From: Minisyncoccota bacterium
Lineage (GTDB): Bacteria; Patescibacteriota; Minisyncoccia; Phycocordibacterales; SBAW01
DNA length: 64,000 nucleotides
Assembly: GCA_035546615.1 (NCBI GenBank)
Contig: DASZWM010000002.1
Span: 15,460 to 79,459 of the forward strand
Direction: 5' to 3'
Positions within the stretch are counted from its first letter, which is position 1; every line of letters begins with the position of its first letter. The translations under genes and the position numbers were made by a program. Positions 14,359-58,715 of this stretch are shown here, in pieces. Below the pieces are notes generated by a model, which ran no database searches, was not told the origin of the DNA, and saw only the letters and a program-made list of their open reading frames with translations.

Positions 14359-14365
14359 TAAGAAT

Positions 14366-23873: not shown

Positions 23874-23955
23874 GCTGGGGTGGCGGAATTGGTATACGCA
23901 CCTGCCTTAGGAGCAGACGGGGTAACCCATGGAGGTTCAAGTCCTCTCCCCAGCA
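23874..23955 (+). tRNA. tRNA-Leu (anticodon TAG)
   Basis: Acceptor GCTGGGG/CCCCAGC, anticodon loop CTTAGGA, long variable arm, T arm GGAGG TTCAAGT CCTCT. Confidence 0.88.
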
Positions 23956-24075
23956 CATTGTAAGAGATAAGTTTTTGTTGTATTTTGATTCATACGCGCC
24001 TATATCTTCCCCAGGTCGATATAGCCGTTCGTTCGGGGCGAATGCAAAACAGGATTTTGCGCTCTTCCTCACTTC

Positions 24076-24148
24076 GCGCCTATAGCTCAGCTGGTAGAGC
24101 TGCTCCCTCTTAAGGAGAAGGTCCCAGGTTCGAATCCTGGTGGGCGCA
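24076..24148 (+). tRNA. tRNA-Lys (anticodon CTT)
   Basis: GCGCCTA TAGCTCAGCTGGTAGAGC, anticodon loop CTCTTAA, T arm CCCAG GTTCGAAT CCTGG. Confidence 0.92.
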
Positions 24149-24159
24149 CAGACGACAGT

Positions 24160-24184
24160 AAAATCCCGCTTGAGCGGGATTTTC
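24160..24184 (+). terminator. rho-independent terminator after tRNA-Lys
   Basis: AAAATCCCGC ttga GCGGGATTTT. Confidence 0.7.
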
Positions 24185-24278
24185 TGCGCTGTGCGGGGCG
24201 CAGCCATGTCCCGCACTGGCGGGACGGCGAGCCGGGGTCGCGAAACTATTTCGCGACGGCGAAATAGTATTTGTGACC
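24184..24278 (+). repeat. tRNA-linked structured element, copy D (short form, 3' of tRNA-Lys)
   Basis: CTGCGC tgtgcggg GCGCAG; CCCGC actg GCGGG; ACGGCGAGCCGGGGTCGCG; ACTATTTCGC gacg GCGAAATAGT; ATTTGTGACC. Shares the core, GACG-loop hairpin and tail with copy E. Confidence 0.55.
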
Positions 24279-24301
24279 ACAAAGTGCGAGACGCTTTTTT
24301 G

Positions 24302-24447
24302 AGGCCAGGAGAAATCGATCAGGCGTTCAAAAATTGTCGTCACAATTTTTGCCGCACGACCCTGCCTCGCTCCCAAGTCTGCTGACTTGGGGCCCGCTCC
24401 GGCTTGCGATTCCCGACGAGAAGCACCCCGTGCTTCTCTCCATGGCC
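24302..24447 (-). repeat. tRNA-linked structured element, copy A (long form, 3' of tRNA-Cys)
   Basis: Three perfect hairpins plus the conserved core GCCGGAGCGGG..GGGAGCGAGGCAGGGTCGTG shared with copies B and C. The arms derive from the tRNA-Cys 3' end. Confidence 0.8.
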
Positions 24448-24469
24448 GCTTGCGTCGAAGACTCCTTAG

Positions 24470-24541
24470 AGGCCACGGCGGGAATCGCACCCGCGTATAA
24501 AGGATTTGCAGTCCCTTGCCTTACTACTTGGCTACGTGGCC
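24470..24541 (-). tRNA. tRNA-Cys (anticodon GCA)
   Basis: GGCCACG/CGTGGCC acceptor, anticodon loop CTGCAAA, T arm GCGGG TGCGATT CCCGC, discriminator U. Confidence 0.9.
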
Positions 24542-39789: not shown

Positions 39790-42009
39790 TTATTCCGCTT
39801 TTTTCTTTGCAAAGCCTCTGCGCTTCTTTTCTTCGCTCAGTATCTCAAGCGCGCGATCGAGCGTAATCGCATATACGTCATCGGTTTTGAGTGAGCGGAA
39901 GTCGGGTTTGGGCTTCGTATTGTGGGCGATATAGGGACCAAAACGGCCGATGTTTGCAGTAATGGTCTCCTCGGTATCGGGGTGTACACCGAGCACGCGT
40001 GGGAGGCTCAAATACTTAAGAGCATCTTCAAGCGTAACTTCTTCGGGCACTTTTTCTTTGGGGATGGAGCCGCGCTTGGGCTTGTTCTTGGACTTCGAGC
40101 CCTTGCCGGTCGGCGTTTCGCCCACCTGCACGTACGGGCCGAATCGTCCGGTCAGCACGTAAATGGGCTCGCCGGTCTCCGGATAATTGCCGATGGGCTT
40201 GGGCGGCTCGTTTGAAATAACTTCGCCGGTCTCCGTGCGCGCGCCGAGGCAGTCGGGGAAGCGCGAGCAGGACATGAACTTGCCCTGGCGCGAGAGCTTG
40301 AACACCATGGGGCTGCCGCAGAGGGGGCATTTGAACTCTTCCGGCGCGGGACCGAGATCGGTAATCTTACCGGCCTCCTTATCCTTCAATTTAACGTCCT
40401 TAAGGAACGGGGTGTAGAAATCGCCGAGGGTCTTGGCATATTCGCGCTTGCCCTGCGCGATGTCGTCGAGCTCGTCTTCCATCTCGGCGGTAAAGGTATC
40501 TGAAATATAGTTGGCGAAGTTATCCTCGAGGAAGCTCGATACCACGTCGCCGGTGTCGGTGGGCATAAGCGTGCGGCCTTCCTTCAATACGTAGCCGCGG
40601 TCCTGGAGCGTCTTCATGATGCTCGCGTACGTGGACGGGCGGCCGATGCCGCGCTTCTCAAGCTCCTTTATGAGGCCGGCCTCGGTATAGCGGTTGGGCG
40701 GAGTGGTAGCCTTTTCCTCGGCCGACACGTCCTTAACGTCGAGCACTTCCTTGGCCGATACTTTCGGCAGTTCCACATCCTCGCCGCGGGCCGCAGGGTC
40801 GGCCTTGAGCCAGCCGTCGAATACGACGCGCGAGCCGTTGGCCGCAAATTGGGGGATCTTGGCGTTCTTGGTCTCGGCTACGACTTTCGTCTTGAGGAGC
40901 TTTGCATCCGCCATCTGGGAGGCGATTGTGCGCGCCCAGATAAGCTCGTAGAGCTTTTTCTGGTCCGGGGTCGTGCCGACCGACTCCTTTTCTATGTGGG
41001 TGGGACGCACCGCCTCGTGGGCTTCCTGCGCGTTCTTGGACTTGGCGGCGAAGGTATGCGCCTCGACATAGTTCTTGCCGTACTTCTTTTCGGCGTGGGC
41101 AAGTATGGAGGCGCGCGCCGGAGCGCCGAGGTTGGTCGAGTCGGTGCGCATGTAGGTGATATGCCCGGCTTCATACAGCTTCTGCGCGATGCGCATAGTA
41201 TTGGAAGGGGAATACCCGAGGCGCGTCGAAGCCGCCTGCTGGAGGGTGGAAGTGGTGAACGGCGCCCGGGGTGCGCGCTTCATTTCGCTTTCGGTCACGT
41301 CCAAGACGGTAAGCCCGTCCTTTTTGACGGCCTCTAGTATCTTGTCAGCCTCGTCCTTCTTGCGCGGCTCCTCGACGCAGGTAAGCATCAGGTCATCCTT
41401 TGCCTCGGTCTTCGTCGCCGCAGTTATTACATAAAACGTTTCGGGTACGAAGGCGCGTATCTCGCGCTCGCGCTCCATGATGATGCGCAAGGCGGGGCTC
41501 TGCACGCGTCCGGCCGAAAGCCCGTAGCGCACTTTCTTCCAAATGAGGCCGGAGAGGTCGTAGCCCACGAGGCGGTCGAGCACGCGGCGGGCCTCCTGGG
41601 CGAAGCGGAGGTTCTGGTCTATCTGGCGCGGATTCGCGAGCGCCTCGGCAATGGCTTCCTTGGTAATTTCGTGGAATACGATGCGCTCGGGCTTTTTGAG
41701 CTTAAGCTCCTGGCCGATGTGCCAGGCGATAGCCTCGCCCTCGCGGTCGGGGTCGGTCGCGAGTATGACCTCGTCGGCCTTCTTGGCGAGATGCGCCAGC
41801 TCGTCGATGACCTTGGCCTTGCCGGGCACGACCTCGTAGTGGGGGACGAAGCCCGCCGGAATGTCGATGGCTTTCTTATTGGACTTCGGCAGGTCGCGCA
41901 CGTGGCCCACGGATGCCCGCACGACGAAATCGCCTTTCTTGTCTATTTCGGAAAGGTACTTCTCAATAGTTTTCGCCTTGGCGGGCGACTCGACGATGAC
42001 CAGTTTCAT
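39790..42009 (-). CDS. topA: DNA topoisomerase I
   Basis: Toprim domain MKLVIVESPAKAKTIEKYL, active-site region GHITYMRTDS, C-terminal Cys4 zinc ribbons. Confidence 0.96.
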   Translation of the reverse strand: MKLVIVESPAKAKTIEKYLSEIDKKGDFVVRASVGHVRDLPKSNKKAIDIPAGFVPHYEVVPGKAKVIDELAHLAKKADEVILATDPDREGEAIAWHIGQELKLKKPERIVFHEITKEAIAEALANPRQIDQNLRFAQEARRVLDRLVGYDLSGLIWKKVRYGLSAGRVQSPALRIIMEREREIRAFVPETFYVITAATKTEAKDDLMLTCVEEPRKKDEADKILEAVKKDGLTVLDVTESEMKRAPRAPFTTSTLQQAASTRLGYSPSNTMRIAQKLYEAGHITYMRTDSTNLGAPARASILAHAEKKYGKNYVEAHTFAAKSKNAQEAHEAVRPTHIEKESVGTTPDQKKLYELIWARTIASQMADAKLLKTKVVAETKNAKIPQFAANGSRVVFDGWLKADPAARGEDVELPKVSAKEVLDVKDVSAEEKATTPPNRYTEAGLIKELEKRGIGRPSTYASIMKTLQDRGYVLKEGRTLMPTDTGDVVSSFLEDNFANYISDTFTAEMEDELDDIAQGKREYAKTLGDFYTPFLKDVKLKDKEAGKITDLGPAPEEFKCPLCGSPMVFKLSRQGKFMSCSRFPDCLGARTETGEVISNEPPKPIGNYPETGEPIYVLTGRFGPYVQVGETPTGKGSKSKNKPKRGSIPKEKVPEEVTLEDALKYLSLPRVLGVHPDTEETITANIGRFGPYIAHNTKPKPDFRSLKTDDVYAITLDRALEILSEEKKRRGFAKKKAE

Positions 42010-42047: not shown

Positions 42048-45000
42048 TTACCCTTTTTCCACTTCGCTTGGCAAGCGCCCCGGCCAGCGGTACACGAGCG
42101 TCGGAATGAGAATGAGCGTCAGTATCATCGCGAAGGAAAGCCCGAAAAGAATGGCGAACGCCAGCGGCCCCCACAGGGCGGACGCGAAGGTGAGCGGTAT
42201 CATGCCGATCACCGTGGTGATGGTCGTGAGGACGATGGGGCGCAGGCGCGAGGTCGCCGCCTCGACCACGATGTCGGAGAATGTGCGGCCCGCTCCCGCG
42301 TGGAGGCGCTGGAGTATGGAGTCCATGAGGATGATGGCGTGGTTGATAATGACGCCCGCGAGCGCAATGACGCCCAGAAGCGAGGAGAACGAGAGCGTCT
42401 GGCCGGTCAGCACCAGGCCGCCGAACACGCCGATGAGAGAAAGCGGGATAATGGCGAGCAGATACGTGGTGTAGCGGAATGAGTTGAAGGCAAGCACGAG
42501 AATGACGAACATAAGCGCCATGCCCGCCAACAGCGCGATACCCATCTCGGCGAAGGACTGATTGGTCTCTTCGTTCTCGCCGCCGATAGATACCGTGACG
42601 CCCACGGGAAGCTCGACGCTCTTCATCTTCTCGTTGTACGCGGCAAGCACCGCTCCGGCGGTGTAGCCCGGCAGCGTATTGGCCGACAAGGTTACTATGC
42701 GCTCCCGGTCCTCGTGGTTGATTGTCGAGTCGTTGCGCGCCACGCTTTCCTCAAGGAGCGAGCCGAGCAGTATCGTAGTCCCGCTCTGGGTGGTGATAGG
42801 CACCTGATGAAGCGCGTCTATGGTGGCGTTTGAGGCGTCATGCGGGTCAATGTAGGACGGGTTTAGATTGAGAAGCACGTTTATGTCCACGTCGCGCTCG
42901 GCGCCCGAAATGGACGTTGCCTTCATGCCCGACACCGCGGTGCGCAGGGTAGAGGCCACTTGCGCGGCCGTCACGCCCGCCTGCGCGAGCCGCGAGCGGT
43001 CGATGCGAAGCTCGAACTGAACGGTCTCGTTCTTGTTTGAAGCGTCGACGCTGGTGGCGCCGGGTGTCGACTCGAGCACGCCGCGCGCGGCCGCCACCGC
43101 CGCATCCAGCGCGTCGCGGTCGGAGCCGAGGAACTTAATAAGTACGGGCGCGCCCACGGGCGGGCCGCCGGTCGGCTGGTCGGACGTTACCTTGGCGCTC
43201 CGGATGCCGGAAAGCTCTTTCCGGACTTGGCTCAGCACTTCGGTGCTGGTCTTCGAGCGGCCTTTCGGCAAATTGATGGTGAGGCTCGCAAATCGCGGAT
43301 CGGACTGGGGATTGCCGCTGAATTCGCTGGTGCGGCCGACGGTCGTCACGAAGGACGCGATGTCGTGGTCGTTGTACAGCACTTCCTCCACCTGGCGCGC
43401 GACCAGATCGCTCTGATTGAGCGACGAGCCCGGCGGAAGCTCAATATCGGTATATAAAAAGTCTATGTCATCCTGCGGGAAAAAGCTCACGGGAAGCAGT
43501 CCCGCGATGGGCAGGGCGAGGGCCAGAACGAACGCGAGCGCCATGCCCCACAGGAAGCGGTTCTGGTTCTTCTTGTGATGCAGGAAGCTTTTCAGCTTCG
43601 CGGAGTACCAGGTACGCGCCGCCTCGGCGTACTCTTCCTGCTTGTCCAAGAGCCAGCCGCGCGCGCCTATCTTCTGCGAGAACATCATGGTGAGCGTCGG
43701 CACCAGCCCCAGCGCCACGAAAATGGAGGCGATGAGCACGAATATGAGCGTGTACGGGATGCCGGCGATGAATTTGCCCACGATGCCCGAAATAAAGAAG
43801 AGCGGGAAGAACACCGCGACGGTCGTCATCGTGCCGCCGATGAGCGGCCAAGCGTACTCGCGGAGGGCCTCGAAGGCAGCCACTTTTTTGTCGCCGAACG
43901 TGCGTATGCGGGTGTGTATGGCTTCGACGACGACGATGCCGGAGTCCACGAGGATGCCGATGGCGAGAATGAGCGAGAAGAGGGAAATAAAGTTGAGCGT
44001 GTTGCCGGTGTAGAGGAGCCCGACGAACGCGATAAGGAACGAAAGGGGAATGGAAAGGCCCGCGACTATCGCCTCGCGCCAGCCGATGGTCGCAAAGAGC
44101 ACGAGCATCACGAGCACGACGGTCTCAAGCCCCGTGCGGGTAAGCTCGGTCAGGTCCTGCTGCACCTCGTCGCCGGCGTCCAGCGACACCACGACCTGGC
44201 TGCCGTCCAGAAGCCCTGCCTTGAGCGTATCAAGCCTTGCCTTCACCGCGCGGGTCACAGCGGTCACGTCCTGTCCGCGCACTTTGTATACCAAAAGGGT
44301 CATGGCCTGCTCGGAGGGCGCGCCCGCAACCGAGATGCGCGAGTAGGAGGTCGCCTTCTCGACGCCGTCGGACACGTCGGCGATATCGCGCACGTAGATG
44401 ACCTGCCCGCCGACGTTCAGTATCGCCACCGAGCCGATGTCCTCGGTCGTATCGAAGCTGCCGTCGAAGGCGATATTGTAGTTGATGTCATTGACCTCGA
44501 TGGAGCCCACCGGAAGCGACGAGTTCGCAGCGCCTATGGCCGCCACGACCTGGGGGAGCGAAATGCCGTAGCGCGCGAGGTCCTCCTTGCGCACGACGAC
44601 GTCTATCTCGCGGTTGCGCACACCGGAGATGTCTACGCGCTGGACTCCCTTCACGGCCTGGAGCTCGTTCTGTACCTGATCGGCCAGTTCCGCCAGCTGG
44701 GCGAAGGGCTCGTTGGCGGAAATGGAGATTATCTGTATAGGCTGGTCGACGAAGTTCACGTCAGATACCGTCGGGTCCTTCGCTTCCGCCGGGAGGTCCA
44801 CTTTCGCCTTATCGACCTCGTCCTTGAGCTTCTGGATGGACTTGTCGAGGTCGGCCGACGCGAGGAACTGCACGGTCACGACCGAGATGCCGTCGCGCGA
44901 TGTCGAGGTGAGCGTGTCGAGGTTCTCGATGTTGGCCAGATGCTCTTCAAGCTTGTTAGTGACCAGGCGCTCGACGTCCTCGGCCGATGCGCCCGGAAGC

Positions 45001-45152
45001 ACGGTCGATACGATGCCCACCGGGATGGATACTTCCGGCGCCGACTCCTTGGTGATGCGTACGGCCGCGAAGACGCCCGATATCGTGACCGCCGCGATGA
45101 CGAGCAGGGTGAACTGGCGCTTTTCTATGAAGAATTTCCAGAATGACAGCAT
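42048..45152 (-). CDS. RND-family efflux transporter (AcrB/AcrD/AcrF type)
   Basis: 1034 aa, 12-TM layout with two large periplasmic loops, typical RND N-terminus FFIEKRQFTLLV. Confidence 0.9.
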   Translation of the reverse strand: MLSFWKFFIEKRQFTLLVIAAVTISGVFAAVRITKESAPEVSIPVGIVSTVLPGASAEDVERLVTNKLEEHLANIENLDTLTSTSRDGISVVTVQFLASADLDKSIQKLKDEVDKAKVDLPAEAKDPTVSDVNFVDQPIQIISISANEPFAQLAELADQVQNELQAVKGVQRVDISGVRNREIDVVVRKEDLARYGISLPQVVAAIGAANSSLPVGSIEVNDINYNIAFDGSFDTTEDIGSVAILNVGGQVIYVRDIADVSDGVEKATSYSRISVAGAPSEQAMTLLVYKVRGQDVTAVTRAVKARLDTLKAGLLDGSQVVVSLDAGDEVQQDLTELTRTGLETVVLVMLVLFATIGWREAIVAGLSIPLSFLIAFVGLLYTGNTLNFISLFSLILAIGILVDSGIVVVEAIHTRIRTFGDKKVAAFEALREYAWPLIGGTMTTVAVFFPLFFISGIVGKFIAGIPYTLIFVLIASIFVALGLVPTLTMMFSQKIGARGWLLDKQEEYAEAARTWYSAKLKSFLHHKKNQNRFLWGMALAFVLALALPIAGLLPVSFFPQDDIDFLYTDIELPPGSSLNQSDLVARQVEEVLYNDHDIASFVTTVGRTSEFSGNPQSDPRFASLTINLPKGRSKTSTEVLSQVRKELSGIRSAKVTSDQPTGGPPVGAPVLIKFLGSDRDALDAAVAAARGVLESTPGATSVDASNKNETVQFELRIDRSRLAQAGVTAAQVASTLRTAVSGMKATSISGAERDVDINVLLNLNPSYIDPHDASNATIDALHQVPITTQSGTTILLGSLLEESVARNDSTINHEDRERIVTLSANTLPGYTAGAVLAAYNEKMKSVELPVGVTVSIGGENEETNQSFAEMGIALLAGMALMFVILVLAFNSFRYTTYLLAIIPLSLIGVFGGLVLTGQTLSFSSLLGVIALAGVIINHAIILMDSILQRLHAGAGRTFSDIVVEAATSRLRPIVLTTITTVIGMIPLTFASALWGPLAFAILFGLSFAMILTLILIPTLVYRWPGRLPSEVEKG

Positions 45153-45169
45153 GGGATGATGCGGCGGGA

Positions 45170-46699
45170 TTACTGCGCTACTTCTACCGTTTCCCTCGCG
45201 CGCAGGCCCCGGGCGTCCGTGACTATCAGCATGTCGGGAGTGGCGCCGTCGAGTATGACCACGCGGTCGCCGAGCAGCTCGCCTATCGTTACTGTATGCG
45301 CCACGAGCATATTGTTCGCGTCCACCGTAAAGACGCTCATGCCGCCCTGGCCAATCTTAAGCGCCGCAAGGGGAATGACGAGGCGCGCGGGAGCGGCGGC
45401 CGTGGCGGCGTTTTGCGCGCGGGCAAGCTCGACCGTGACCGACTGGCCGTTGATGAGAGCGGTCGCGGAGCCGCTGATGCCGACGCGCACCTCTATTTTC
45501 TTGGTGACGGGGTCAATGGCGGGCGCGATGCGGGTTATGACGCCGTCTGCCGAGCCGCCGAGCTTCGCCTTGCCGCCTACCGCAAGCTGGCGGGCGTCGG
45601 ATTCGGTGACATAGGCTACCACTTCAAGCGCGCCGTTGTTGGCTACCGTAAGGACCGCGGAGCCGAGCTGGACGTAGTCGCCGCGCTTCAGCGACAGGGA
45701 ATTGATAGTGCCGGAAATGGGGGCGCGGATGAGCGTATGCTCAAGGTTGGCGCGCGCGGAGGCGAGGCCCGCCTGGGCCTGCTTTACCGCCGCGGCGCTG
45801 ACCGAGGCGTTTGCGCCGGTGCCCGCGATGCTCTGGCGGGCGCTGCCGAGCGCGGTTATGGAGGCGGTCACGGCCGTGCGCGCCGCGATAGTGGCAGCCT
45901 TATAGCCGTCCAGCACCGATGCGGTCACGACCTCGTCGGGCTCGCCGGCGTTAAGCGCGCGCAGGAGGGCATCGAGGAAGTTGCGCACCTGCTGGAGCTC
46001 GGCTTCGGTTTGAGCAAGCTCGCCGCTTTGGTCTGAGGCGGAAGAGATCTGCGCCGATGCGGCCTTCTGCCTGTCGAGCGCGGCATCGAGCGCGCTGCGC
46101 AGGCTTTCGGCCTCGCGTTTGGAGGCGGAATCTTCCGTCTTTACGCGCAGGTAATACGTGTGCGGCGTGGTATCCGGATTGATGAACATAGGGTCCGCCG
46201 CGTTGTGCACCGCGTTGTCTGCCGCCGCGTAGGCGGAGAGGAGCGCGCTTGCGGCGCTGGTGCCTGAAATGCCGGCGGAGGCCTGCGCCGCCTCGACGCC
46301 GGCCTGCGCCTGGAGCACCGCCGCGCGCTCGGACGCGTTCTCGACTTCCGCTACCACCGCGCCCGCGCCGACGTAGTCGCCGAGCTGGTAGTTGAGCGAG
46401 GTAATCTCGCCGGATTTCTCCGCGCGCACGGTAGCCTCGGACTTGGAGCTCACGGTGCCCGCTACCGAAAGCCCGGAGGTCTGGTTGGAAAGGTCGGCGA
46501 TGGAGCGCAGCTCAACGCTGCGGGTATTGTTCGGCGCCGCCGCTTCGGAAGCGCCGCCTGAGAACGCCGCGTGGAGGACGATAAGCAGGACGACCAGAAC
46601 GCCCGCCCCCGCGGCGAGTTTTTTCCAGCCCAGACGCTTGGCTGTACGGGTCAGATACGAAACGAAGTCCTGGAGGCGCGCGAAAATAGATTGCAACAT
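45170..46699 (-). CDS. efflux transporter periplasmic adaptor (MFP/HlyD family)
   Basis: N-terminal TM helix, lipoyl-like and coiled-coil hairpin regions (TVRAEKSGEITSLNYQLGDYV). Lies directly upstream of the RND gene. Confidence 0.8.
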   Translation of the reverse strand: MLQSIFARLQDFVSYLTRTAKRLGWKKLAAGAGVLVVLLIVLHAAFSGGASEAAAPNNTRSVELRSIADLSNQTSGLSVAGTVSSKSEATVRAEKSGEITSLNYQLGDYVGAGAVVAEVENASERAAVLQAQAGVEAAQASAGISGTSAASALLSAYAAADNAVHNAADPMFINPDTTPHTYYLRVKTEDSASKREAESLRSALDAALDRQKAASAQISSASDQSGELAQTEAELQQVRNFLDALLRALNAGEPDEVVTASVLDGYKAATIAARTAVTASITALGSARQSIAGTGANASVSAAAVKQAQAGLASARANLEHTLIRAPISGTINSLSLKRGDYVQLGSAVLTVANNGALEVVAYVTESDARQLAVGGKAKLGGSADGVITRIAPAIDPVTKKIEVRVGISGSATALINGQSVTVELARAQNAATAAAPARLVIPLAALKIGQGGMSVFTVDANNMLVAHTVTIGELLGDRVVILDGATPDMLIVTDARGLRARETVEVAQ

Positions 46700-46708
46700 A
46701 TGAAAATA

Positions 46709-46960
46709 TTATCTGTTCTTCTTAATAATACCCTGAATGACGTTGAGCCGCTTGGACAGGTGGGTGGCGAACTTCTCGACGCCCGATAGCTTCGCGAAGG
46801 TCACCATCTCGCCGCCCATGCCGAACACAAGCAGTTTCTGGCCCTTCTTGAGGCCCATCGCCTCGCGGGCGTCCGCGGGAATGACTATCTGGCCCTTTTC
46901 GCCCAAGGTCGTGATGCCGTATATCTTCTCCGCGGGGTGGTGAGCATGGTTCTTAAGCAT
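46709..46960 (-). CDS. AbrB/MazE/SpoVT-family DNA-binding protein
   Basis: TTLGEKGQIVIPADAREAMGLKKGQKLLVF is a swapped-hairpin AbrB-type motif. First gene of the efflux operon. Confidence 0.7.
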   Translation of the reverse strand: MLKNHAHHPAEKIYGITTLGEKGQIVIPADAREAMGLKKGQKLLVFGMGGEMVTFAKLSGVEKFATHLSKRLNVIQGIIKKNR

Positions 46961-47029: not shown

Positions 47030-47068
47030 GCGTAAAAAATGCCCCGCGCGACTATGAGTCGCGCGGGG
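47030..47068 (-). terminator. rho-independent terminator of the gcrA-like gene
   Basis: On the minus strand, CCCCGCGCGACT cat AGTCGCGCGGGG followed by CATTTTTTACGCC. Confidence 0.75.
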
Positions 47069-47083
47069 TGATGTTGTCTGGGC

Positions 47084-47611
47084 CTAGTAGGCCCCATACT
47101 GCGGATTGACCGGCGTTGCGGCCTGCCGTCCATAATGCGCGTGATAGAGGCAATACTGATTCCTTTTTCCTCCCGTATCCGCGCCGCAGTACAGCGCGGG
47201 GCTCGTTTCCGTCTGGTCGCGCACGATAGTGTGACACATCCCTTCCTCAACCTGCAGGAGCGTCACGTTGATGCTCTTCGGTTGCGGGATTTCCATGACG
47301 GCACGGGGCAGCGCAGCCTGCCGCGCGGCTTCCGGATGCAGCTTGGGCGGCTCGCGCCTTGCTTTTATCCGTAACCGCATGAGCGCGGCATTGTTTGTTG
47401 AGCCTGTTCGCGGTTTGCGCGGCCGGGCCTGGCTGGGTGCGGGCTTCGGCCGTCCGGAAAGGTTGAGACGGTGGATTTTTCCAATGACGGCATTCGCCGT
47501 AACTCCGCCCAGCTGGGCGGCTATCTGGCTTTTGGAAAATCCCTCGCTCCAGAGCTTTTTGAGCAATTCAATGCGCTCGTCCGTCCAGCCATGATTCTTG
47601 GTAGAACCCAT
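47084..47611 (-). CDS. gcrA: GcrA-family cell-cycle regulator-like protein
   Basis: WTDERIELLKKLWSEGFSKSQIAAQLGGVTANAVIGKIHRLNLSGR closely parallels the Caulobacter GcrA N-terminus. C-terminal C...YCG...YCLYH motif. AAGGAG RBS and own terminator. Confidence 0.8.
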   Translation of the reverse strand: MGSTKNHGWTDERIELLKKLWSEGFSKSQIAAQLGGVTANAVIGKIHRLNLSGRPKPAPSQARPRKPRTGSTNNAALMRLRIKARREPPKLHPEAARQAALPRAVMEIPQPKSINVTLLQVEEGMCHTIVRDQTETSPALYCGADTGGKRNQYCLYHAHYGRQAATPVNPQYGAY

Positions 47612-47664
47612 AGGCTTTTACTCCTTGTACTGATAGTGGAACAAATGTCCTGTCCTTACTATAA

Positions 47665-48525
47665 CTATGTCCGTACTATCTTGCCAAGACGCTCTTCTAC
47701 GAGCCCGCGGATCTGCAGCGATGAAAGCGCGATGTTCGCTTCCTGAGCGGAAAGCCCCGCGCGCTCAATAAGCTCGTCTTTTTCGAGTGCTTCGGCCAAT
47801 GCCTCGAGTATTTTCGCTTCGGCAGGCGTCAGATCGGACGGGAAGGAGGCTTCCGCAGCATCTTCGACTTTCAGTCCGAGCGCTTCAAGAATATCTTCGC
47901 TGTTGCGAACGAGCGTTGCGCCTTCGCGAATCAGCCGGTTGACGCCCGCGCCGCTCTCGCGCCCCAGCTCGTGCGGCACGGCGAGCACTTCGCGGTTGTA
48001 GTCAAGCGCGAGCCGCGCGGTAATAAGCGTGCCGGACTTTTCTCCCGCTTCTATTATGAGCGTGGCAAGCGCCATGCCGGCCCCGATGCGGTTTCGCTTG
48101 GCGAAATCGAACAGCTGGGGCCGGTAGGGGCCGGGATTCTCGCTTACGAGCGCGCCGCCCTTCTCAAGTATCCGCTGCGCCAGCCCGCGGTTGCTTGCGG
48201 GATATATAGAAGAGTCATCGCATGAGGAGGGGAGCACCGCTACGGTTGCCAGCCCGGCATCGAGCGCCGCCTTGTGCGCTTCGGCGTCTATGCCTAAAGC
48301 GAGGCCCGAGACTATCGCGACCGGATACCGCGCTAGCCCCGCGATAAGCGCTTGGCACATACGCCTTCCATATATAGACGTAGCGCGCGAGCCCACGACG
48401 CACAGGAGCTTGTACTCGGGCGGGGGAAGTTCGCCGCGTAGGTACAGCATTTTCGGCTTGTCCGGAATTTCCCTCAAAAGGTCGGAAAATCCGTCAGGCG
48501 GCAGTTGTCGGATAGGGAAAGCCAT
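47665..48525 (-). CDS. dprA: DNA processing protein DprA (Smf)
   Basis: VVGSRATSIYG, IVSGLALGIDAEAHKAAL, GTLITARLALDYNREV. Confidence 0.9.
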   Translation of the reverse strand: MAFPIRQLPPDGFSDLLREIPDKPKMLYLRGELPPPEYKLLCVVGSRATSIYGRRMCQALIAGLARYPVAIVSGLALGIDAEAHKAALDAGLATVAVLPSSCDDSSIYPASNRGLAQRILEKGGALVSENPGPYRPQLFDFAKRNRIGAGMALATLIIEAGEKSGTLITARLALDYNREVLAVPHELGRESGAGVNRLIREGATLVRNSEDILEALGLKVEDAAEASFPSDLTPAEAKILEALAEALEKDELIERAGLSAQEANIALSSLQIRGLVEERLGKIVRT

Positions 48526-48550: not shown

Positions 48551-49822
48551 ATGTTAGATATCACGTTCATCCGCGAGAATCTAGAGCTCGTGAAGGCCGG
48601 CGCCAAGAAGAAGCATATCGAGGTCGACCTCGACCGGCTCATGTCCGTGGACGAAAAGCGCCGCGCGCTCCTGGTGGAGATAGAGACCATGCGCGCCAAG
48701 CAGAACGAGGTGTCCGACATGGTGGTCAAGGCGAGCCCCGAGGAAAAAGAAAAGGCTATCGGCGAAATGCGGGTGCTCAAGGAGACGCTTCAGGGCAAAG
48801 AGAAGGAAATGGAGGAGGTGATGCATGAATGGCAGCTCCTTATGGTGGCGGTGCCGAACATTCCGGATTTGTCAGTGCCCGACGGCGACTCCGACGCGGA
48901 CAATAAAGAGGTGAAGGTGTGGGGCGGAAAGCCGCAGTTCGCTTTTACCCCGAAGAGCCACGTCGAATTGATGCAGGACCTCGAGATGGCGGACTTCGAG
49001 CGCGGCACCAAGGTCGCCGGATTCCGCGGCTACTTCCTCAAGGGCGACGGGGCGCTCTTATCTTTCGCTATCTGGCGCTACGCGCAGGATTTTTTCCTGA
49101 AAAAGGATTTTACGCCGATGATAGTGCCGAGTTTGGTAAAGCGCGTCGCATTTTTGGGCAGCGGGTACCTGCCCCAGGGCGAGGACGACCTGTATAAGAC
49201 GCAGGACGGCGATTTTTTGGCCGGCACCGCGGAAGTGGCGACGATGGGGTACTACATGAACGAAGTATTGCCGAAAGAAAAACTGCCGATGAAATTCCTT
49301 TCCTTCTCGCCGTGCTTCAGGCGCGAGGCGGGCGCGCACGGCAAGGACGTCAAAGGCCTTATCCGGGTACACGAATTCTTCAAATGGGAGCAGGTCATCG
49401 TGTGCGAGGGCACGCATGAGGAGTCGGTCAAATGGCACGAATGGGTGAATCGCAACACGGAAGAGTTCATCGAGTCGCTTGAGATCCCGTACCACACGGT
49501 GCTCAACTGTGGCGGTGACCTCGGGCTGGGCCAGGTAAAAAAGTATGACATCGAGCTGTGGGTGCCGGGCGAGAATACGTATCGCGAGATAAGCTCGGCC
49601 TCGTACTTCCATGACTTCCAGACCCGCCGTCTTAACATCCGCTATCGCGACGAGAACGGAAAGATGCAGTACTCGCATTCGCTTAATTCCACCGCCATTC
49701 CGACTCCGCGTATCCTCGTGTCTTTGATAGAGAATTACCAGCAGGAAGACGGCTCCATCCTCATCCCGAAAGCCCTGCAGCAGTACATGGGCAAGGAAAA
49801 AATAGAAAAAGCGAAAGCGTAA
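48551..49822 (+). CDS. serS: seryl-tRNA synthetase
   Basis: MLDITFIRENLELVK, a coiled-coil arm, class II motifs (FRREAGAHGKD, GLIRVHEF, TAIPTPRILV). Start is the internal ATG of ORF 48191..49822. Confidence 0.95.
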   Translation: MLDITFIRENLELVKAGAKKKHIEVDLDRLMSVDEKRRALLVEIETMRAKQNEVSDMVVKASPEEKEKAIGEMRVLKETLQGKEKEMEEVMHEWQLLMVAVPNIPDLSVPDGDSDADNKEVKVWGGKPQFAFTPKSHVELMQDLEMADFERGTKVAGFRGYFLKGDGALLSFAIWRYAQDFFLKKDFTPMIVPSLVKRVAFLGSGYLPQGEDDLYKTQDGDFLAGTAEVATMGYYMNEVLPKEKLPMKFLSFSPCFRREAGAHGKDVKGLIRVHEFFKWEQVIVCEGTHEESVKWHEWVNRNTEEFIESLEIPYHTVLNCGGDLGLGQVKKYDIELWVPGENTYREISSASYFHDFQTRRLNIRYRDENGKMQYSHSLNSTAIPTPRILVSLIENYQQEDGSILIPKALQQYMGKEKIEKAKA

Positions 49823-55431: not shown

Positions 55432-55502
55432 TGCCCGATCGTCTAATGGTAGGACAGAGGCCTTTGAAGCCTTTAATTGGGGTTCGAATCCCTGTCGGGC
55501 AG
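55432..55502 (+). tRNA. tRNA-Gln (anticodon TTG)
   Basis: TGCCCGA/TCGGGCA acceptor (U1-A72), anticodon loop CTTTGAA, T arm TGGGG TTCGAAT CCCTG. Confidence 0.9.
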
Positions 55503-55726: not shown

Positions 55727-57400
55727 ATGCCGTATTCGACTGATATGTCAGTGTATTTAGATTTGGGCGGCGCTTTAGCTGCTTTTGGCCTTTTATTTAC
55801 TGTTTACCAACTTCGGCGACCAAGGTGGGAGGTAATTTTGCGAATTAGAAATAATTGGCAAAGTGATATTTTCTGGATATTAGGTTTTATAGGTTTGTTT
55901 TATGCCCTAGTTGGCGTGCTTGTATCTGAACTCCCAATTAATTCTTTCAACTTTCCGTTTAATACCCCATTACTTTACGAGGTGGCAGCGTACCTATCGT
56001 TTGTAGCTTCACCTCTGTCATTAATATATTTTGCGACCAATGACAAAAAGTTATTTAACGCAAAAACTGCAGAAACTTTCTACGAAGTAATCTTGCAAGA
56101 AATTTCTAAATCTAGTGATGTAAACCTAGATGCGGCATTGGAAATAGTCTTGAGAAACTTTAATGAAATTTGTGATGCAACTCTTCAAAATACAGATAAA
56201 GATTTGCGCTCATACGCAAGGTCAATTTTAGACGTTGTACTAAGTGACGAGTCTGTAGTAAAAGTGCTCACTACCAAGAGGCTTGATGCTTTGCAATATA
56301 TCTTTTATTTAATAAAGGAAAAGAATATCACTCGTGCTCATTCGGGGATAGGTATACCGAGAATTGTAAATAATCTTTTCTTTGACGAAAATTCCTTCCT
56401 CTATAAACAACTCGATAGAAAAGGGTTGGCACTTTCATCAAATATATACACGAGCATTTTTGAATCTCCAGTTATACTCACCAACTTTGATCTGTTTGGG
56501 TACCCGACTATCGGTTATGGAATGAGTAGAGATACTGGCAATGCTGGTATAAGAGTATTTATCAAAGCCTTATCTCTAAGCATTGAAACTTACTTTAAAA
56601 CAGGGAGCGTGCCTCCGAGGCACATTAATAATGGGTTGTCTTACTTAAGCAATATATTTGGAGGGTTGTGTGCAAAAATTGCCATCAAAGAAAATAAAGG
56701 TGTTGATACTAAATCTAGTTTAGAAGATGAGTGGTGGGGCTTACATCAAATAGCCTCCTTTTTAGGACATGATTATATTTTTCTTGCCTATGAAGAAAAA
56801 CTAAATCAGCAAGTTCTGGAAAACGAAAAAACTGCCCATGAGGCTCGATTTGGCTCAAATGCAACTATAAATGAGGGTATTGCAGCTGTTATCTATAAAG
56901 CTTTTGAGCAGCTTTCACAAATTAAAAAAACCACAGACATATATCATACAGTTCTGGAGCTCTTGCATGGAATGATGAATGAGCCTACCTACAAGGAAGG
57001 TTATAGACCGCCTTTTGAAAAGAGACTCTGGCAACAAATCGGTGCAAATGTTGCTAAACGTTATTATCCTGCCGTCGTTAGAACGTATTTAACCTTTGTT
57101 GGGTTCTGTCTTGGCGCAGATGCAAACCAACGACAAGGTTGGATTGGCGAACAAGCGGAACGTATGAGACGACTTTTGTATATTGACCTTAAGCCTTTAT
57201 TTGATAAGAATGAAAAAATGATAAATAAGGAATTTATGAAAGACGTTTTGCTCCCAGATTCCATGTCCTATAAAGATGGTAAATTTACTTATACCTCTGG
57301 ATTCGGAGAAGGTACAACCACTGAAGTAGCACCACCCCCTGAGGGTGCGACATCAGGTTTGGAAGGAATAGATTTAGAGAGTATGCCTCACTTCGTCTAG
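55727..57400 (+). CDS. ORFan membrane protein (3 N-terminal TM helices plus a ~450-aa helical domain)
   Basis: 557-aa ORF in the AT-rich island. No motif recognised. Confidence 0.65.
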   Translation: MPYSTDMSVYLDLGGALAAFGLLFTVYQLRRPRWEVILRIRNNWQSDIFWILGFIGLFYALVGVLVSELPINSFNFPFNTPLLYEVAAYLSFVASPLSLIYFATNDKKLFNAKTAETFYEVILQEISKSSDVNLDAALEIVLRNFNEICDATLQNTDKDLRSYARSILDVVLSDESVVKVLTTKRLDALQYIFYLIKEKNITRAHSGIGIPRIVNNLFFDENSFLYKQLDRKGLALSSNIYTSIFESPVILTNFDLFGYPTIGYGMSRDTGNAGIRVFIKALSLSIETYFKTGSVPPRHINNGLSYLSNIFGGLCAKIAIKENKGVDTKSSLEDEWWGLHQIASFLGHDYIFLAYEEKLNQQVLENEKTAHEARFGSNATINEGIAAVIYKAFEQLSQIKKTTDIYHTVLELLHGMMNEPTYKEGYRPPFEKRLWQQIGANVAKRYYPAVVRTYLTFVGFCLGADANQRQGWIGEQAERMRRLLYIDLKPLFDKNEKMINKEFMKDVLLPDSMSYKDGKFTYTSGFGEGTTTEVAPPPEGATSGLEGIDLESMPHFV

Positions 57401-57402
57401 AT

Positions 57403-57960
57403 ATGAATCCAAACATTTGGTTTTACACTTTTAGTACAGCAGCCCAAGTAATGGCGGCTTTGGCCGGTTTATTTGCAGTATTTGTTGTATATAAGATTCA
57501 AGATTTTAGTCAGCTTATAAAAGACGCCCGCTCTAGTCTGTCCCGGTTGATTCCATACAATTCAGCGAATACGGGCGGAGATACAATCTCTAAGCAGGAA
57601 GTATTAGATATGACTGATAGAGAATTGGTTACTACGCTTGCCGAGTTGTTAGTACTTGAGACATCTCAGAATGGAGCGTTCTTTAGCGGACATTCAGAAA
57701 CTATAGATGGCACAACGATAGCTGTAAACTCGAATACCTACGACTATTTCGCAGCCCTTGTTGATAAAAAGGAAAGAATACTAAAACGTCTGATTTTTGT
57801 CTTGGGTTTAAGTTTAGGAACTATTTGTGTTTGTCTAGTATCATTGGTGCTAATTGACGTGTTATCAAAGTTTGAGTGGTTTATTTGGATGTGTTTGGCT
57901 TTATTTATATACACCCTTTGGACAATCGGAATGGATATTTACAAGATAACCCTAGAGTAA
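57403..57960 (+). CDS. ORFan membrane protein (1 N-terminal and 2 C-terminal TM helices)
   Basis: 185 aa, starting 3 nt after the previous stop. The N-terminal helix MAALAGLFAVFVVYKI resembles that of the 557-aa protein (LAAFGLLFTVYQL). Confidence 0.6.
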   Translation: MNPNIWFYTFSTAAQVMAALAGLFAVFVVYKIQDFSQLIKDARSSLSRLIPYNSANTGGDTISKQEVLDMTDRELVTTLAELLVLETSQNGAFFSGHSETIDGTTIAVNSNTYDYFAALVDKKERILKRLIFVLGLSLGTICVCLVSLVLIDVLSKFEWFIWMCLALFIYTLWTIGMDIYKITLE

Positions 57961-57969
57961 TCTTTCTCT

Positions 57970-58293
57970 ATGAAAGGAATAATTATCGAAAATAGTCTCA
58001 AAGACAAAAGTATTATCACCGAAGCTGAAATTATTCGAACTTGGGAAGATGGAAGTTGGAAGTTGCGGGAGGTAAAAGTTTCAACAGAATGGGCTGAAAA
58101 ATTTGGAGGATACTTAAATGATGGACCCTGGTATGTTCACTTTTGGGAATCCGACAGCGACGATGTACTAGTAGTATTTAAAGACAAAAGCTTCTGGATC
58201 AAACATTCGGACAAGAATACTTGGCAAGATGCTATTGCTCATGGAAAGTCGTTACATATACCCGTGGAGCAATTAGACTTTCCTATTGATTGA
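57970..58293 (+). CDS. small soluble ORFan protein
   Basis: 107 aa, Trp/Asp-rich, same operon-like spacing. Confidence 0.5.
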   Translation: MKGIIIENSLKDKSIITEAEIIRTWEDGSWKLREVKVSTEWAEKFGGYLNDGPWYVHFWESDSDDVLVVFKDKSFWIKHSDKNTWQDAIAHGKSLHIPVEQLDFPID

Positions 58294-58331
58294 GATTTCG
58301 ATTTCTCCCTTTTATATTATATAATCAAGAT

Positions 58332-58715
58332 ATGAAGTATTTGCTAATCACGGCTTTATTTTTGGTTGTCTTTGTGTTTGCTACTCCAGCAAAGGCCGCA
58401 CCATTAACCCAATCCCAAGTAAATGCAATAATTACTATTATGCAGTCTTTCGGTGTAGATAGTGCTACGATTTTAAATATCAAAACAACACTCTCTAATT
58501 CGACTTCCGCTAAGGTAGAATCCGTCGTCAAAACTACTTTTAAAGGAGTTCCTACCTACGCACAAGTGAAAAGAGAGTTAGCAAAATCACGCAATAAGGA
58601 GGTGACTTATATGGAGAATGGATGTGTATACTCAATAAACCATTTAGTGAGTGAACATATTTTCAAAACACGCGATATGAGTATTCGCGATCTTGCATCT
58701 GGAGCAAGTTGTTAG
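58332..58715 (+). CDS. secreted ORFan protein
   Basis: Signal peptide MKYLLITALFLVVFVFATPAKA/AP. Start is the internal ATG of ORF 58290..58715. Confidence 0.5.
   Translation: MKYLLITALFLVVFVFATPAKAAPLTQSQVNAIITIMQSFGVDSATILNIKTTLSNSTSAKVESVVKTTFKGVPTYAQVKRELAKSRNKEVTYMENGCVYSINHLVSEHIFKTRDMSIRDLASGASC

What the first reader, a model, noticed from the sequence alone, without database searches (positions are those of the whole stretch)
47030..47611. Stand-alone GcrA-family gene in a non-alphaproteobacterial-looking genome
The N-terminal 50 aa (WTDERIELLKKLWSEGFSKSQIAAQLGGVTANAVIGKIHRLNLSGR) are near-collinear with the DNA-binding domain of Caulobacter GcrA. A Pro/Arg/Lys-rich linker and the conserved C-terminal Cys/His segment (MCHTIV...LYCGADTGGKRNQYCLYHAHY) are also present. 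GcrA is known as an alphaproteobacterial cell-cycle regulator that recognises CcrM-methylated GANTC promoters through sigma70. Otherwise it is seen mainly in phages of those hosts. Here it is monocistronic, with an AAGGAG RBS and a 12-bp GC hairpin plus T-run, between an efflux operon and dprA. This suggests horizontal acquisition or an undescribed role outside Alphaproteobacteria.
Basis: partly seen in the sequence, partly recalled or inferred. Interest (0 to 1): 0.5.

Follow-up and report, generated by a model that had tools for sequence, protein, structure and literature searches.

The report
GcrA-family regulator in a Paceibacteria genome
A real, selectively maintained copy of the alphaproteobacterial cell-cycle regulator GcrA sits at a conserved spot (between dprA and topA) in a group of ultra-small CPR bacteria, but in this genome its key DNA-reading arginine and most sigma-factor contact residues have been replaced, so it probably works differently.

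Summary
Window 47084-47611 (-) encodes a 175-aa protein that hits Pfam GcrA at 114 bits (cutoff 26.9). It has its own RBS, a promoter-like site and a 12-bp GC hairpin terminator. The genome is CPR (Paceibacteria, Adlerbacteria-like): TopA is 80-94% identical to named CPR MAGs.

This is not a recent transfer. GcrA-family genes occupy the same dprA-topA slot in four other relatives:
- one 51% identical copy with the same derived features
- one canonical alpha-like GcrA
- one 102-aa mini form
- one N-domain-only form

Two relatives have an empty slot and two carry unrelated small genes. The best reading is an old transfer from Alphaproteobacteria or their phages, followed by vertical inheritance with fast divergence and losses.

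The window protein belongs to a rare derived subfamily of three Paceibacterota proteins. It keeps the HTH fold and all four zinc ligands. It has lost R33 (the G/m6A-reading arginine), W120/P125/F130/Y151 of the sigma70 interface, and the basic C-terminal tail. It fails the NCBIfam equivalog cutoff (105 vs 280 bits). Both domains are under purifying selection (dN/dS about 0.2). No CcrM-type methyltransferase lies in the window, and GANTC statistics are uninformative. GenBank already labels the protein GcrA family. Interest is moderate.

The parts
47084..47611 (-). gcrA-family CDS, 175 aa (GenBank HVV14904.1)
   Evidence: ORF list. Pfam PF07750 at 114 bits, E=1.1e-32. PDB 7ye1_G at E=8e-24. Exact match to P0001 / HVV14904.1.
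47450..47590 (-). N-terminal helix-turn-helix DNA-binding domain (residues 8-54)
   Evidence: 72% identical to the Caulobacter GcrA DBD. The AF2 model has pLDDT about 95 and 0.5 A rmsd to 5yiv_A. It keeps N34, I37, G38, K39, H41, R42, W3 and W15; R33 is Ala39. dN/dS 0.18 against L082.
47276..47449 (-). Pro/Arg/Lys-rich disordered linker (residues 55-112)
   Evidence: pLDDT about 45-50 through most of the linker. Only 34% identical to the L082 orthologue, dN/dS 0.38.
47117..47275 (-). C-terminal CCCH zinc-finger domain, homologous to the GcrA sigma-interacting domain (residues 113-165). A non-basic tail follows to residue 175.
   Evidence: Zinc ligands C126, C142, C154 and H157 align to C118, C133, C143 and H146. 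Model pLDDT 82-92, TMt 0.71 to 5yix_B. The sigma-contact residues W120, P125, F130 and Y151 are replaced. dN/dS 0.20. Only P0002 and P0311 share this derived domain among 1.84e9 representatives.
47621..47626 (-). Shine-Dalgarno AAGGAG, 9 nt upstream of the ATG
   Evidence: Read directly from the sequence.
47658..47687 (-). sigma70-type promoter-like site TTGGCA-18-TATAGT, overlapping the 3' end of dprA
   Evidence: Consensus scan, 10 of 12 matches; 4 sites found against 0.8 expected in the region. This is a consensus match only.
47033..47068 (-). Intrinsic-terminator-like hairpin (12 bp stem, 10 GC pairs, loop of 3) plus T-run
   Evidence: Terminator scan and the sequence itself.
47665..48525 (-). 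dprA, the upstream boundary of the conserved slot
   Evidence: Pfam DNA_processg_A at E=1.1e-60. It is 68-76% identical to dprA at the same position in seven relatives.
39790..42009 (-). topA, the downstream boundary of the conserved slot
   Evidence: Pfam Topoisom_bac at E=4.4e-123. It is 80-94% identical in the CPR relatives. It lies directly after dprA in L167 and L171.
42048..46960 (-). Secondary insertion between gcrA and topA: an AbrB/MazE-like gene (46709-46960), a membrane-fusion protein (45170-46699) and an RND pump (42048-45152)
   Evidence: Pfam hits. The MFP and RND genes are present only in the window, L082 and (RND only seen) L166, and absent from L167-L173. The AbrB-like gene is unique to the window.

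Best explanation
The gene encodes a two-domain GcrA-family protein in a Paceibacteria (CPR, Adlerbacteria-like) chromosome.

Origin (inferred). An ancestor of this clade took up a canonical gcrA, most likely from an alphaproteobacterium or one of its phages, and it landed between dprA and topA. It has since been inherited vertically. It diverged very fast and was repeatedly truncated, replaced or lost.

The window copy (shown). It belongs to a derived subfamily of three known Paceibacterota proteins. Its own promoter-like site and terminator suggest it is expressed as a single-gene unit. Both folded domains are under purifying selection.

Mechanism (inferred from the Caulobacter structures). 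The C-terminal CCCH zinc finger tethers the protein to the housekeeping sigma factor of RNA polymerase. The N-terminal helix-turn-helix, on a flexible linker, gives the holoenzyme an extra DNA contact and biases it towards a subset of promoters.

Differences from Caulobacter GcrA (shown as substitutions, consequences inferred). The arginine that reads the G of GANTC and walls the m6A pocket (R33) is Ala. Four of the six residues needed for Caulobacter sigma70 binding are non-conservatively replaced (a fifth, F132, is Tyr), and the basic tail is gone. The DNA specificity is therefore probably no longer m6A-GANTC, and the sigma interface has probably been re-fitted to the CPR sigma factor.
For: Family and fold:
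- Pfam GcrA at 114 bits.
- PDB sequence hits to Caulobacter GcrA.
- The AF2 model matches both solved domains.

Host genome:
- TopA has 80-94% identical homologues in named CPR MAGs.
- The window carries ordinary housekeeping genes.
- GC at gcrA is 0.588 against a window mean of 0.571.
- The serS-dprA-gcrA-abrB stretch was assembled independently in a Logan contig.

Vertical inheritance:
- L082 has the syntenic order dnaX-dus-ftsQ-serS / dprA-gcrA-MFP-RND-topA-relA, with a GcrA 51% identical to the window's.
- L169 has dprA, a canonical GcrA (Pfam 158.6 bits) and topA.
- L168 has a GcrA N-domain gene in the slot (44 bits).
- L172 has a 102-aa mini-GcrA (zinc-finger region E=3e-5).

Alpha-like origin:
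- The L169 GcrA has a median 48% (maximum 55%) identity to alphaproteobacterial GcrAs. That is the same range as Caulobacter or Rhodobacteraceae against other orders.
- All non-CPR best hits are Hyphomicrobiales and other Alphaproteobacteria.
- Phage copies are more distant.

Selection:
- dN/dS is 0.18 for the DBD and 0.20 for the zinc-finger domain. dprA is 0.16 and dnaX 0.16.

Derived residues:
- See the alignment, read against the residue roles described in PMC5887438.
- P0002 and P0311 (HVU80323.1) share the same changes.
Against: - Nothing here shows binding to sigma or to DNA.
- Only one of the six residues whose substitution abolishes Caulobacter sigma70 binding is identical (Y142); F132 is conservatively Tyr. 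The C-domain may therefore bind something else.
- The NCBIfam equivalog score is far below its cutoff.
- The slot is unstable. It is empty in L167 and L171 and holds unrelated small genes in L170 and L173. The gene is evidently dispensable in close relatives.
- The NJ tree does not group L169 with the window/L082 pair (2.5% bootstrap) and its backbone is unresolved. A single acquisition rests on synteny, not on phylogeny.
- dS is near saturation, so the dN/dS values are rough.
Confidence: 0.58

Rival explanations
1. The protein is still a GcrA-fold DNA binder but no longer a sigma cofactor. It would act as an ordinary small HTH repressor, activator or nucleoid-associated protein, and the zinc finger would serve folding or another partner.
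For: - W120, P125, F130 and Y151 are replaced and the basic C-terminal patch is absent.
- The equivalog cutoff is missed.
- The relative L168 keeps only the DBD, joined to an unrelated C-terminus.
- Many viral contigs and Lactobacillus phages carry only the DBD.
Against: - All four zinc ligands are kept and the domain has dN/dS 0.20.
- The model still resembles the solved sigma-interacting domain, TMt 0.71.
- Y142 is kept and F132 is a conservative Tyr.
- Re-fitting of an interface to a very different CPR sigma factor would give the same pattern.
Confidence: 0.25
2. It is a canonical GcrA/CcrM epigenetic module transplanted into a CPR bacterium. The protein would read m6A-GANTC written by a CcrM-type methyltransferase encoded elsewhere in the genome.
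For: - Five of the six base-contacting residues are kept, including the methyl-pocket residues I37 and G38.
- GANTC is at 0.56 of the dinucleotide expectation.
- GANTC density is higher in intergenic DNA: 3.9 against 2.2 per kb.
Against: - R33, which hydrogen-bonds the G and walls the first methyl pocket, is Ala here and in L082, and Asn in P0311.
- GANTC observed/expected is 0.91 under a third-order Markov model. TCNGA and AGNCT behave the same way.
- No [DNS]PP[YFWH] methyltransferase motif occurs in any ORF of at least 150 aa in the window. None occurs in a plausible ORF across about 170 kb of relatives' loci.
Confidence: 0.08
3. It is a decaying remnant of an old transfer with no present function.
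For: - The slot is patchy, with losses, truncation and a frameshifted copy in relatives.
- It is the fastest-evolving gene of the syntenic block: 51% identity against 71-93% for most neighbours.
Against: - The ORF is intact and has an RBS, a promoter-like site and a terminator.
- dN/dS is about 0.2 in both folded domains. Divergence is concentrated in the linker.
- Three independent genomes keep the same derived motifs.
Confidence: 0.07
4. It is an artefact: a mis-binned or chimeric alphaproteobacterial or phage fragment, or a very recent mobile-element insertion.
For: All high-scoring non-self hits apart from P0002 are alphaproteobacterial.
Against: - The same junctions occur in an independent Logan assembly and in a JGI contig from another sample.
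- GcrA-family genes lie in the same slot in further CPR contigs.
- Composition is typical for the window.
- No integrase or phage genes are adjacent.
Confidence: 0.02

Closest known systems
Caulobacter crescentus GcrA (PDB 5YIU/5YIV DBD, 5YIX SID-sigma70 domain 2, 7YE1/7YE2 transcription activation complexes; Pfam PF07750; NCBIfam NF050816)
   Same: - Same three-part architecture: N-terminal HTH, disordered Pro/Arg-rich linker, C-terminal CCCH zinc finger.
- The DBD is 72% identical and the model superposes at 0.5 A.
- N34, I37, G38, K39, H41, R42, W3 and W15 and all four zinc ligands are conserved.
   Different: - R33 is Ala.
- W120 is Thr, P125 is Gln, F130 is Ala and Y151 is Arg.
- Zinc-finger spacing is C-X15-C-X11-C-X2-H rather than C-X14-C-X9-C-X2-H.
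- There is no C-terminal basic patch.
- It has an 8-residue N-terminal extension.
- It scores 105 bits against the 280-bit equivalog cutoff.
- The host is a CPR bacterium, with no CcrM seen in the DNA available.
Canonical GcrA of a related Paceibacterium (L169 9374-9871; P0304)
   Same: - Same dprA-topA slot in a genome whose TopA is 86% identical.
- Same architecture.
   Different: - L169 keeps R33, CKWPIGDP, F130/F132, Y151 and a basic tail, and scores 158.6 bits on Pfam GcrA.
- It is only 40% identical to the window protein and 48-55% identical to alphaproteobacterial GcrAs.
Phage GcrA-like proteins (Caulobacter phage phiCbK group; PHROG 16311/12262; IMG/VR contigs)
   Same: - Same family and in part the same two-domain layout.
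- They show the family is mobile.
   Different: - They are much more distant: at most 34% identity and E no better than 2e-7 in GenBank phages, and at most 42% in IMG/VR.
- Many carry only the DBD.
- The window gene lies in a chromosomal housekeeping context with no phage genes nearby.
Other activators that bind sigma domain 2 or its non-conserved region (RbpA of Actinobacteria, GrgA of Chlamydia), as compared in PMC5887438
   Same: The concept is the same: a small factor pre-bound to the housekeeping sigma that adds DNA contacts (an analogy taken from the paper).
   Different: There is no sequence or fold relationship. This was not tested here beyond the fold search, which returned only GcrA structures as significant hits.

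Membership tests
GcrA family (Pfam PF07750) | Profile score above the curated gathering threshold over both domains | tested here: met
   114 bits against a 26.9-bit cutoff, residues 9-164 matched to profile positions 3-147 of 155.
GcrA family (Pfam PF07750) | N-terminal three-helix HTH DNA-binding domain with the GcrA-DBD fold | tested here: met
   AF2 pLDDT about 95. Foldseek gives 5yiv_A at TMt 0.93, rmsd 0.5 A, 72% identity.
GcrA family (Pfam PF07750) | C-terminal CCCH zinc finger (C118, C133, C143, H146 in Caulobacter) | tested here: met
   C126, C142, C154 and H157 align to the four ligands. Loop lengths differ (X15/X11 against X14/X9). The model gives TMt 0.71 to 5yix_B.
Cell-cycle sigma70 cofactor GcrA, equivalog (NCBIfam NF050816) | Score above the curated equivalog cutoff | tested here: not met
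   105.3 bits against a cutoff of 280.
Cell-cycle sigma70 cofactor GcrA, equivalog (NCBIfam NF050816) | Base- and methyl-reading residues R33, N34, I37, G38, H41 and R42 (PMC5887438) | tested here: not met
   Five of six are kept, but R33 is Ala39. R33 hydrogen-bonds the +4 G, stacks on the +3 T and forms the side of the first m6A pocket. It is also Ala in L082 and Asn in P0311.
Cell-cycle sigma70 cofactor GcrA, equivalog (NCBIfam NF050816) | Sigma70-domain-2 contact residues whose substitution abolishes binding (W120, G129, F130, F132, Y142, Y151) | tested here: not met
   The window has T, P, A, Y, Y and R at these positions. Only Y142 is identical and F132 is a conservative Tyr (residue roles).
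Cell-cycle sigma70 cofactor GcrA, equivalog (NCBIfam NF050816) | [quoted passage not shown] | tested here: not met
   The tail is QAATPVNPQYGAY, with no Arg or Lys run. L082 ends right after the finger.
Cell-cycle sigma70 cofactor GcrA, equivalog (NCBIfam NF050816) | Physical binding to the housekeeping sigma factor / RNAP | not testable with these tools
   No rpoD is present in the window or in the fetched relatives' loci.
GcrA/CcrM epigenetic module | A CcrM-type GANTC N6-adenine methyltransferase in the same genome | tested here: inconclusive
   There is no [DNS]PP[YFWH] motif in any ORF of at least 150 aa in the 64-kb window, and none in a plausible ORF across about 170 kb of relatives' loci. 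The rest of the genome is not available.
GcrA/CcrM epigenetic module | GANTC depletion genome-wide with relative enrichment in promoters | tested here: inconclusive
   There are 150 sites against 269 +/- 16 in dinucleotide shuffles. Observed/expected is 0.91 under a third-order Markov model, and TCNGA and AGNCT behave alike.
Alphaproteobacterial core cell-cycle regulator | Encoded in an alphaproteobacterial chromosome, typically near argD/phoU-phoB as seen in L085 | tested here: not met
   The host is Paceibacteria. The context is dprA-gcrA-(abrB-MFP-RND)-topA, against an aminotransferase/PhoU/PhoB/pst context in an alpha-type contig.

The most novel reading that the evidence does not exclude
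A clade of ultra-small, probably host-dependent Paceibacteria has domesticated the alphaproteobacterial RNAP cofactor GcrA and rebuilt both of its interfaces. The G/m6A-reading arginine is gone and the sigma-contact surface has been replaced. The result would be a methylation-independent, sigma-tethered promoter selector, and a first candidate global transcription or cell-cycle regulator for CPR bacteria. The repeated presence of alpha-like GcrA in this clade could also mark a long-standing physical association with alphaproteobacterial hosts.
Probability: 0.12. Interest if true: 0.65.

Novelty: new variant of a known kind. Interest (0 to 1): 0.4.

Why it matters
GcrA is treated in the literature as an alphaproteobacterial (and phage) regulator coupled to CcrM methylation. 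The library held no paper linking it to CPR bacteria.

Here a GcrA lineage has been kept under selection in a different phylum with tiny genomes and almost no known global regulators. It comes in several natural versions: canonical, R33-less with a remodelled zinc finger, a linker-less mini form, and a DBD-only form.

That set is a ready-made natural mutagenesis series. It could be used to ask which parts of GcrA are needed for sigma binding and for m6A reading. It also gives a concrete, testable entry point into transcription control in Paceibacteria.

The limits are real. The family is known, GenBank already labels this protein as GcrA family, and no functional data can be derived here.

Tried and rejected
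1. **Genome and metagenome scans.** The species-representative genome scan and the metagenome contig scan returned only alphaproteobacterial-type loci at 47% identity or less. The peptide patterns favour canonical GcrAs, so these scans say little about CPR. The CPR relatives were found instead by anchoring on TopA.

2. **NJ phylogeny with bootstrap (the first attempt timed out).** Only the window+L082 pair is supported (100%). The backbone is unresolved. The grouping with a divergent 'proteobacterium' sequence (L066, 63%) looks like long-branch attraction, because L066 keeps R33 and CRWP.

3. **GANTC statistics.** The apparent depletion disappears under a third-order Markov model, and control palindromes behave the same way. 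I rejected this as evidence for or against CcrM.

4. **Motif scans for methyltransferase and sigma70 genes.** Nothing usable was found.

5. **Slot proteins of L170 and L173.** They look superficially similar (W-rich N-terminus, Pro-rich linker). They show no significant similarity to GcrA or to each other, so I did not count them as GcrA.

6. **Representative search with the C-domain alone.** Two of the five hits (P0309, P0310) are repetitive sequences and were rejected as spurious.

7. **A link between gcrA and the efflux genes.** I rejected this because relatives with gcrA lack the pump (L169, L172, L168).

8. **Low-GC island ORFs.** PADLOC and PHROGs gave nothing for the four ORFs of the 55.7-58.7 kb island. 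The 12753-13346 ORF gave only three weak PADLOC matches (E=2e-4 to 1.5e-3).
Full report
**1. The observation**

The minus-strand ORF 47084..47611 encodes 175 aa.
- It matches Pfam GcrA (PF07750) at E=1.1e-32 and 114 bits, against a gathering score of 26.9, over residues 9-164.
- phmmer against PDB finds only Caulobacter GcrA: the full-length chain 7ye1_G at E=8e-24 and the DNA-binding domain 5yiu at E=6.7e-16.
- An AlphaFold2 model built on 83 homologues has two confident domains separated by a low-confidence linker: pLDDT about 95 for residues 11-50, 82-92 for 111-160, and about 45-50 through most of the linker (residues 61-100).
- Foldseek places the N-domain on 5yiv_A (rmsd 0.5 A, TMt 0.93, 72% identity). 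It places the C-domain on the GcrA sigma-interacting domain 5yix_B (TMt 0.71).
- AAGGAG lies 9 nt before the ATG.
- A 12-bp hairpin with 10 GC pairs, followed by a T-run, comes after the stop codon. A TTGGCA-18-TATAGT promoter-like site overlaps the end of dprA.

**2. Whose genome this is**

- The exact protein is GenBank HVV14904.1, 'GcrA family cell cycle regulator [Candidatus Paceibacterota bacterium]'.
- As an independent check, the neighbouring TopA has more than 100 homologues at 75-94% identity. Nearly all of those that carry a source name are labelled Paceibacterota, Parcubacteria, Adlerbacteria, Pacebacteria or Patescibacteria.
- The window carries ordinary housekeeping genes: ftsA, gyrA, infB, clpB, relA/spoT, topA, dprA, serS, dus and dnaX.
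- GC content around gcrA is 0.588, against a window mean of 0.571.
- The serS-dprA-gcrA-abrB stretch was assembled independently in a Logan contig.

Chimerism or mis-binning is therefore not a serious option.

**3. Relatives and the history of the locus**

In 5.8 billion proteins the only close relative is P0002, at 51% identity. Everything else is alphaproteobacterial at 48% or less: Bauldia, Methylocystis, Bartonella, Bosea and others.

P0002 lies in a JGI contig (L082) with the same gene order as the window: dnaX-dus-ftsQ-serS / dprA-gcrA-MFP-RND-topA-relA. Neighbouring proteins are 61-93% identical, with serS the exception at 35%.

I then anchored on TopA and inspected the dprA-topA interval in further relatives. 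Identity below is TopA identity to the window.

| Locus | TopA identity | What lies between dprA and topA |
|---|---|---|
| L166 | 94% | RND then topA; contig ends inside RND |
| L082 | 93% | Derived GcrA (168 aa), MFP, RND |
| L167 | 90% | Empty (24 bp) |
| L168 | 89% | About 165-aa gene with one frameshift; N-terminus is a GcrA DBD (Pfam 44 bits), C-terminus unrelated |
| L170 | 89% | 171-aa gene with no detectable GcrA similarity; dprA truncated |
| L169 | 86% | Canonical 165-aa GcrA (Pfam 158.6 bits; keeps R33, CKWPIGDP and the basic tail) |
| P0195 contig | 86% | 72-aa ORF; no DNA available |
| L171 | 83% | Empty (77 bp) |
| L173 | 82% | 178-aa gene with no detectable GcrA similarity |
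| L172 (Ca. Adlerbacteria) | 80% | 102-aa 'hypothetical protein', a linker-less mini-GcrA with C-X14-C-X11-C-X2-H (Pfam GcrA E=3e-5, just under the cutoff) |

So a GcrA-family gene is an old resident of this slot in the clade. It evolves quickly and is often remodelled or lost.

The MFP-RND pump is a later insertion between gcrA and topA. It is confined to the window, L082 and L166. In the window only, an AbrB/MazE-like gene accompanies it.

**4. Where it came from**

- The canonical CPR copy (L169) has a median 48% and maximum 55% identity to a panel of alphaproteobacterial GcrAs. That is the same range as Caulobacter (median 50%) or Rhodobacteraceae (48%) against other orders.
- phiCbK-type phage copies have a median 32-34% identity to the same panel.
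- The window protein's best phage matches are at most 34% identical in GenBank phages and at most 42% in IMG/VR. Many viral copies carry only the DBD.
- The NJ tree resolves only the window+L082 pair (100%). It leaves the backbone, and the position of L169, unresolved.

My reading is one old transfer from an alphaproteobacterium or one of its phages, followed by vertical descent. This is an inference from synteny plus alpha-level similarity, not a phylogenetic result.

**5. What is special about the window copy**

I mapped the protein onto the residue roles described for Caulobacter GcrA in PMC5887438, using the alignment.

Kept:
- W3, W15, S20, S22, T32, N34, I37, G38, K39, H41 and R42.
- All four zinc ligands.

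Changed:
- R33 is Ala. In Caulobacter, R33 makes two hydrogen bonds to the G of GANTC, stacks on the preceding T and forms one wall of the first m6A pocket.
- At the six residues whose substitution abolishes sigma70 binding in the two-hybrid assay (W120, G129, F130, F132, Y142, Y151), the window has T, P, A, Y, Y and R.
- P125 is Gln.
- The finger loops have different lengths (X15/X11).
- The basic C-terminal patch is missing.
- Consistent with this, the NCBIfam GcrA equivalog model scores 105 bits against a cutoff of 280.

These changes are shared. L082 has the same R33A and lacks WPxGDP. An exhaustive phmmer search of 1.84 billion representatives with the C-domain alone found just one more protein of this type. 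It is P0311 = HVU80323.1, again Candidatus Paceibacterota, with R33 replaced by Asn and the same EDGMC...YCG..TG.KR..YC..H pattern.

The subfamily is under purifying selection. Between the window and L082:

| Region or gene | dN/dS |
|---|---|
| gcrA DBD | 0.18 |
| gcrA zinc-finger domain | 0.20 |
| gcrA linker | 0.38 |
| dprA | 0.16 |
| dnaX | 0.16 |
| topA | 0.065 |

dS is near saturation, so these numbers are rough.

**6. The CcrM question**

- No ORF of at least 150 aa in the window carries an amino-methyltransferase motif IV. Nor does any plausible ORF in about 170 kb of relatives' loci.
- GANTC occurs 150 times, against 269 +/- 16 in dinucleotide shuffles.
- Observed/expected is 0.91 under a third-order Markov model. 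TCNGA (0.57 under the dinucleotide model) and AGNCT behave alike.
- The modest intergenic excess (3.9 against 2.2 per kb) is matched by AGNCT.

These data neither show nor exclude GANTC methylation.

**7. Most likely mechanism**

Shown:
- The family and the two-domain fold.
- An intact zinc site.
- Purifying selection on both domains.

Suggested by consensus matches only:
- The gene's own expression signals (RBS, promoter-like site, terminator-like hairpin).

Inferred:
- The C-domain still docks on the housekeeping sigma factor, through an interface re-fitted to the CPR protein.
- The HTH adds a promoter-proximal DNA contact.
- With R33 gone, the preferred sequence and the dependence on m6A have probably changed.

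Rivals, in order of likelihood:
1. A DNA binder that no longer contacts sigma.
2. A conventional GcrA/CcrM module.
3. A functionless remnant.
4. An artefact.

**8. Verdict**

The finding is real and correctly identified as GcrA family in a non-alphaproteobacterial genome.
- It is not a fresh horizontal arrival. It is a lineage-resident, fast-evolving gene.
- Its neighbourhood with the efflux pump is secondary.
- It is a derived variant that fails the tests for the canonical m6A-reading sigma70 cofactor.
- Public annotation already names it GcrA family, and no experiment backs any function.

I rate it as a new variant of a known kind, with moderate interest.

Noticed in passing
window 48551-49822 (+): The window's seryl-tRNA synthetase (423 aa) is only 34-37% identical to the SerS at the same position in all eight related Paceibacteria loci. 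Its neighbours are mostly 70-93% identical. This looks like an in-situ replacement of serS by a distant xenologue.
   Followed up: partly
window 42048-46960 (-): The block of AbrB/MazE-like gene, membrane-fusion protein and RND pump is an insertion between gcrA and topA. The MFP and RND genes occur only in the window, L082 and (RND only seen) L166. The AbrB-like gene is unique to the window. topA follows the pump by 38 bp, so it may now be co-transcribed with it.
   Followed up: partly
window 55727-58715 (+), next to a tRNA at 55432-55502: This is a low-GC island (GC 0.36-0.43, GC3 about 0.31-0.37, against about 0.57 and 0.7 elsewhere). It has four ORFs of 557, 185, 107 and 141 aa with no Pfam, PADLOC or PHROG match. 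It is probably a tRNA-adjacent acquired island of unknown function.
   Followed up: partly
window 12753-14905 (+): This is a second low-GC stretch (GC 0.41-0.46, GC3 0.29-0.43). It encodes a zinc-ribbon membrane protein, an Ldh_2-family malate/L-lactate dehydrogenase and a YbaK-type tRNA-editing domain protein. It is likely also acquired.
   Followed up: no
L172 5555-5863 (Ca. Adlerbacteria, MDB5225554.1): This is a 102-aa 'hypothetical protein' in the dprA-topA slot. It is a linker-less mini-GcrA: a short HTH-like N-terminus joined directly to C-X14-C-X11-C-X2-H. Its Pfam GcrA score (24.9 bits) is just under the cutoff, so it is unannotated.
   Followed up: partly
L168 9396-9896 (GCA_037975565.1): This is a GcrA-DBD gene with one frameshift and an unrelated, Cys-free C-terminus, with its own terminator. 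The assembly has many split genes (dus, clpB), so the frameshift may be a sequencing error.
   Followed up: partly
L170 9200-9380: dprA is reduced to a short remnant upstream of a 171-aa non-GcrA gene in the slot, so the deletion removed most of dprA.
   Followed up: no
window, whole: All interrupted palindromes of the type GANTC, TCNGA and CTNAG are at 0.38-0.57 of the dinucleotide expectation but near 0.7-0.9 under a third-order Markov model. This is a codon or oligonucleotide usage effect that could be mistaken for restriction avoidance.
   Followed up: yes
window 23737-24541: This is a cluster of five tRNA genes on both strands within 0.8 kb.
   Followed up: no
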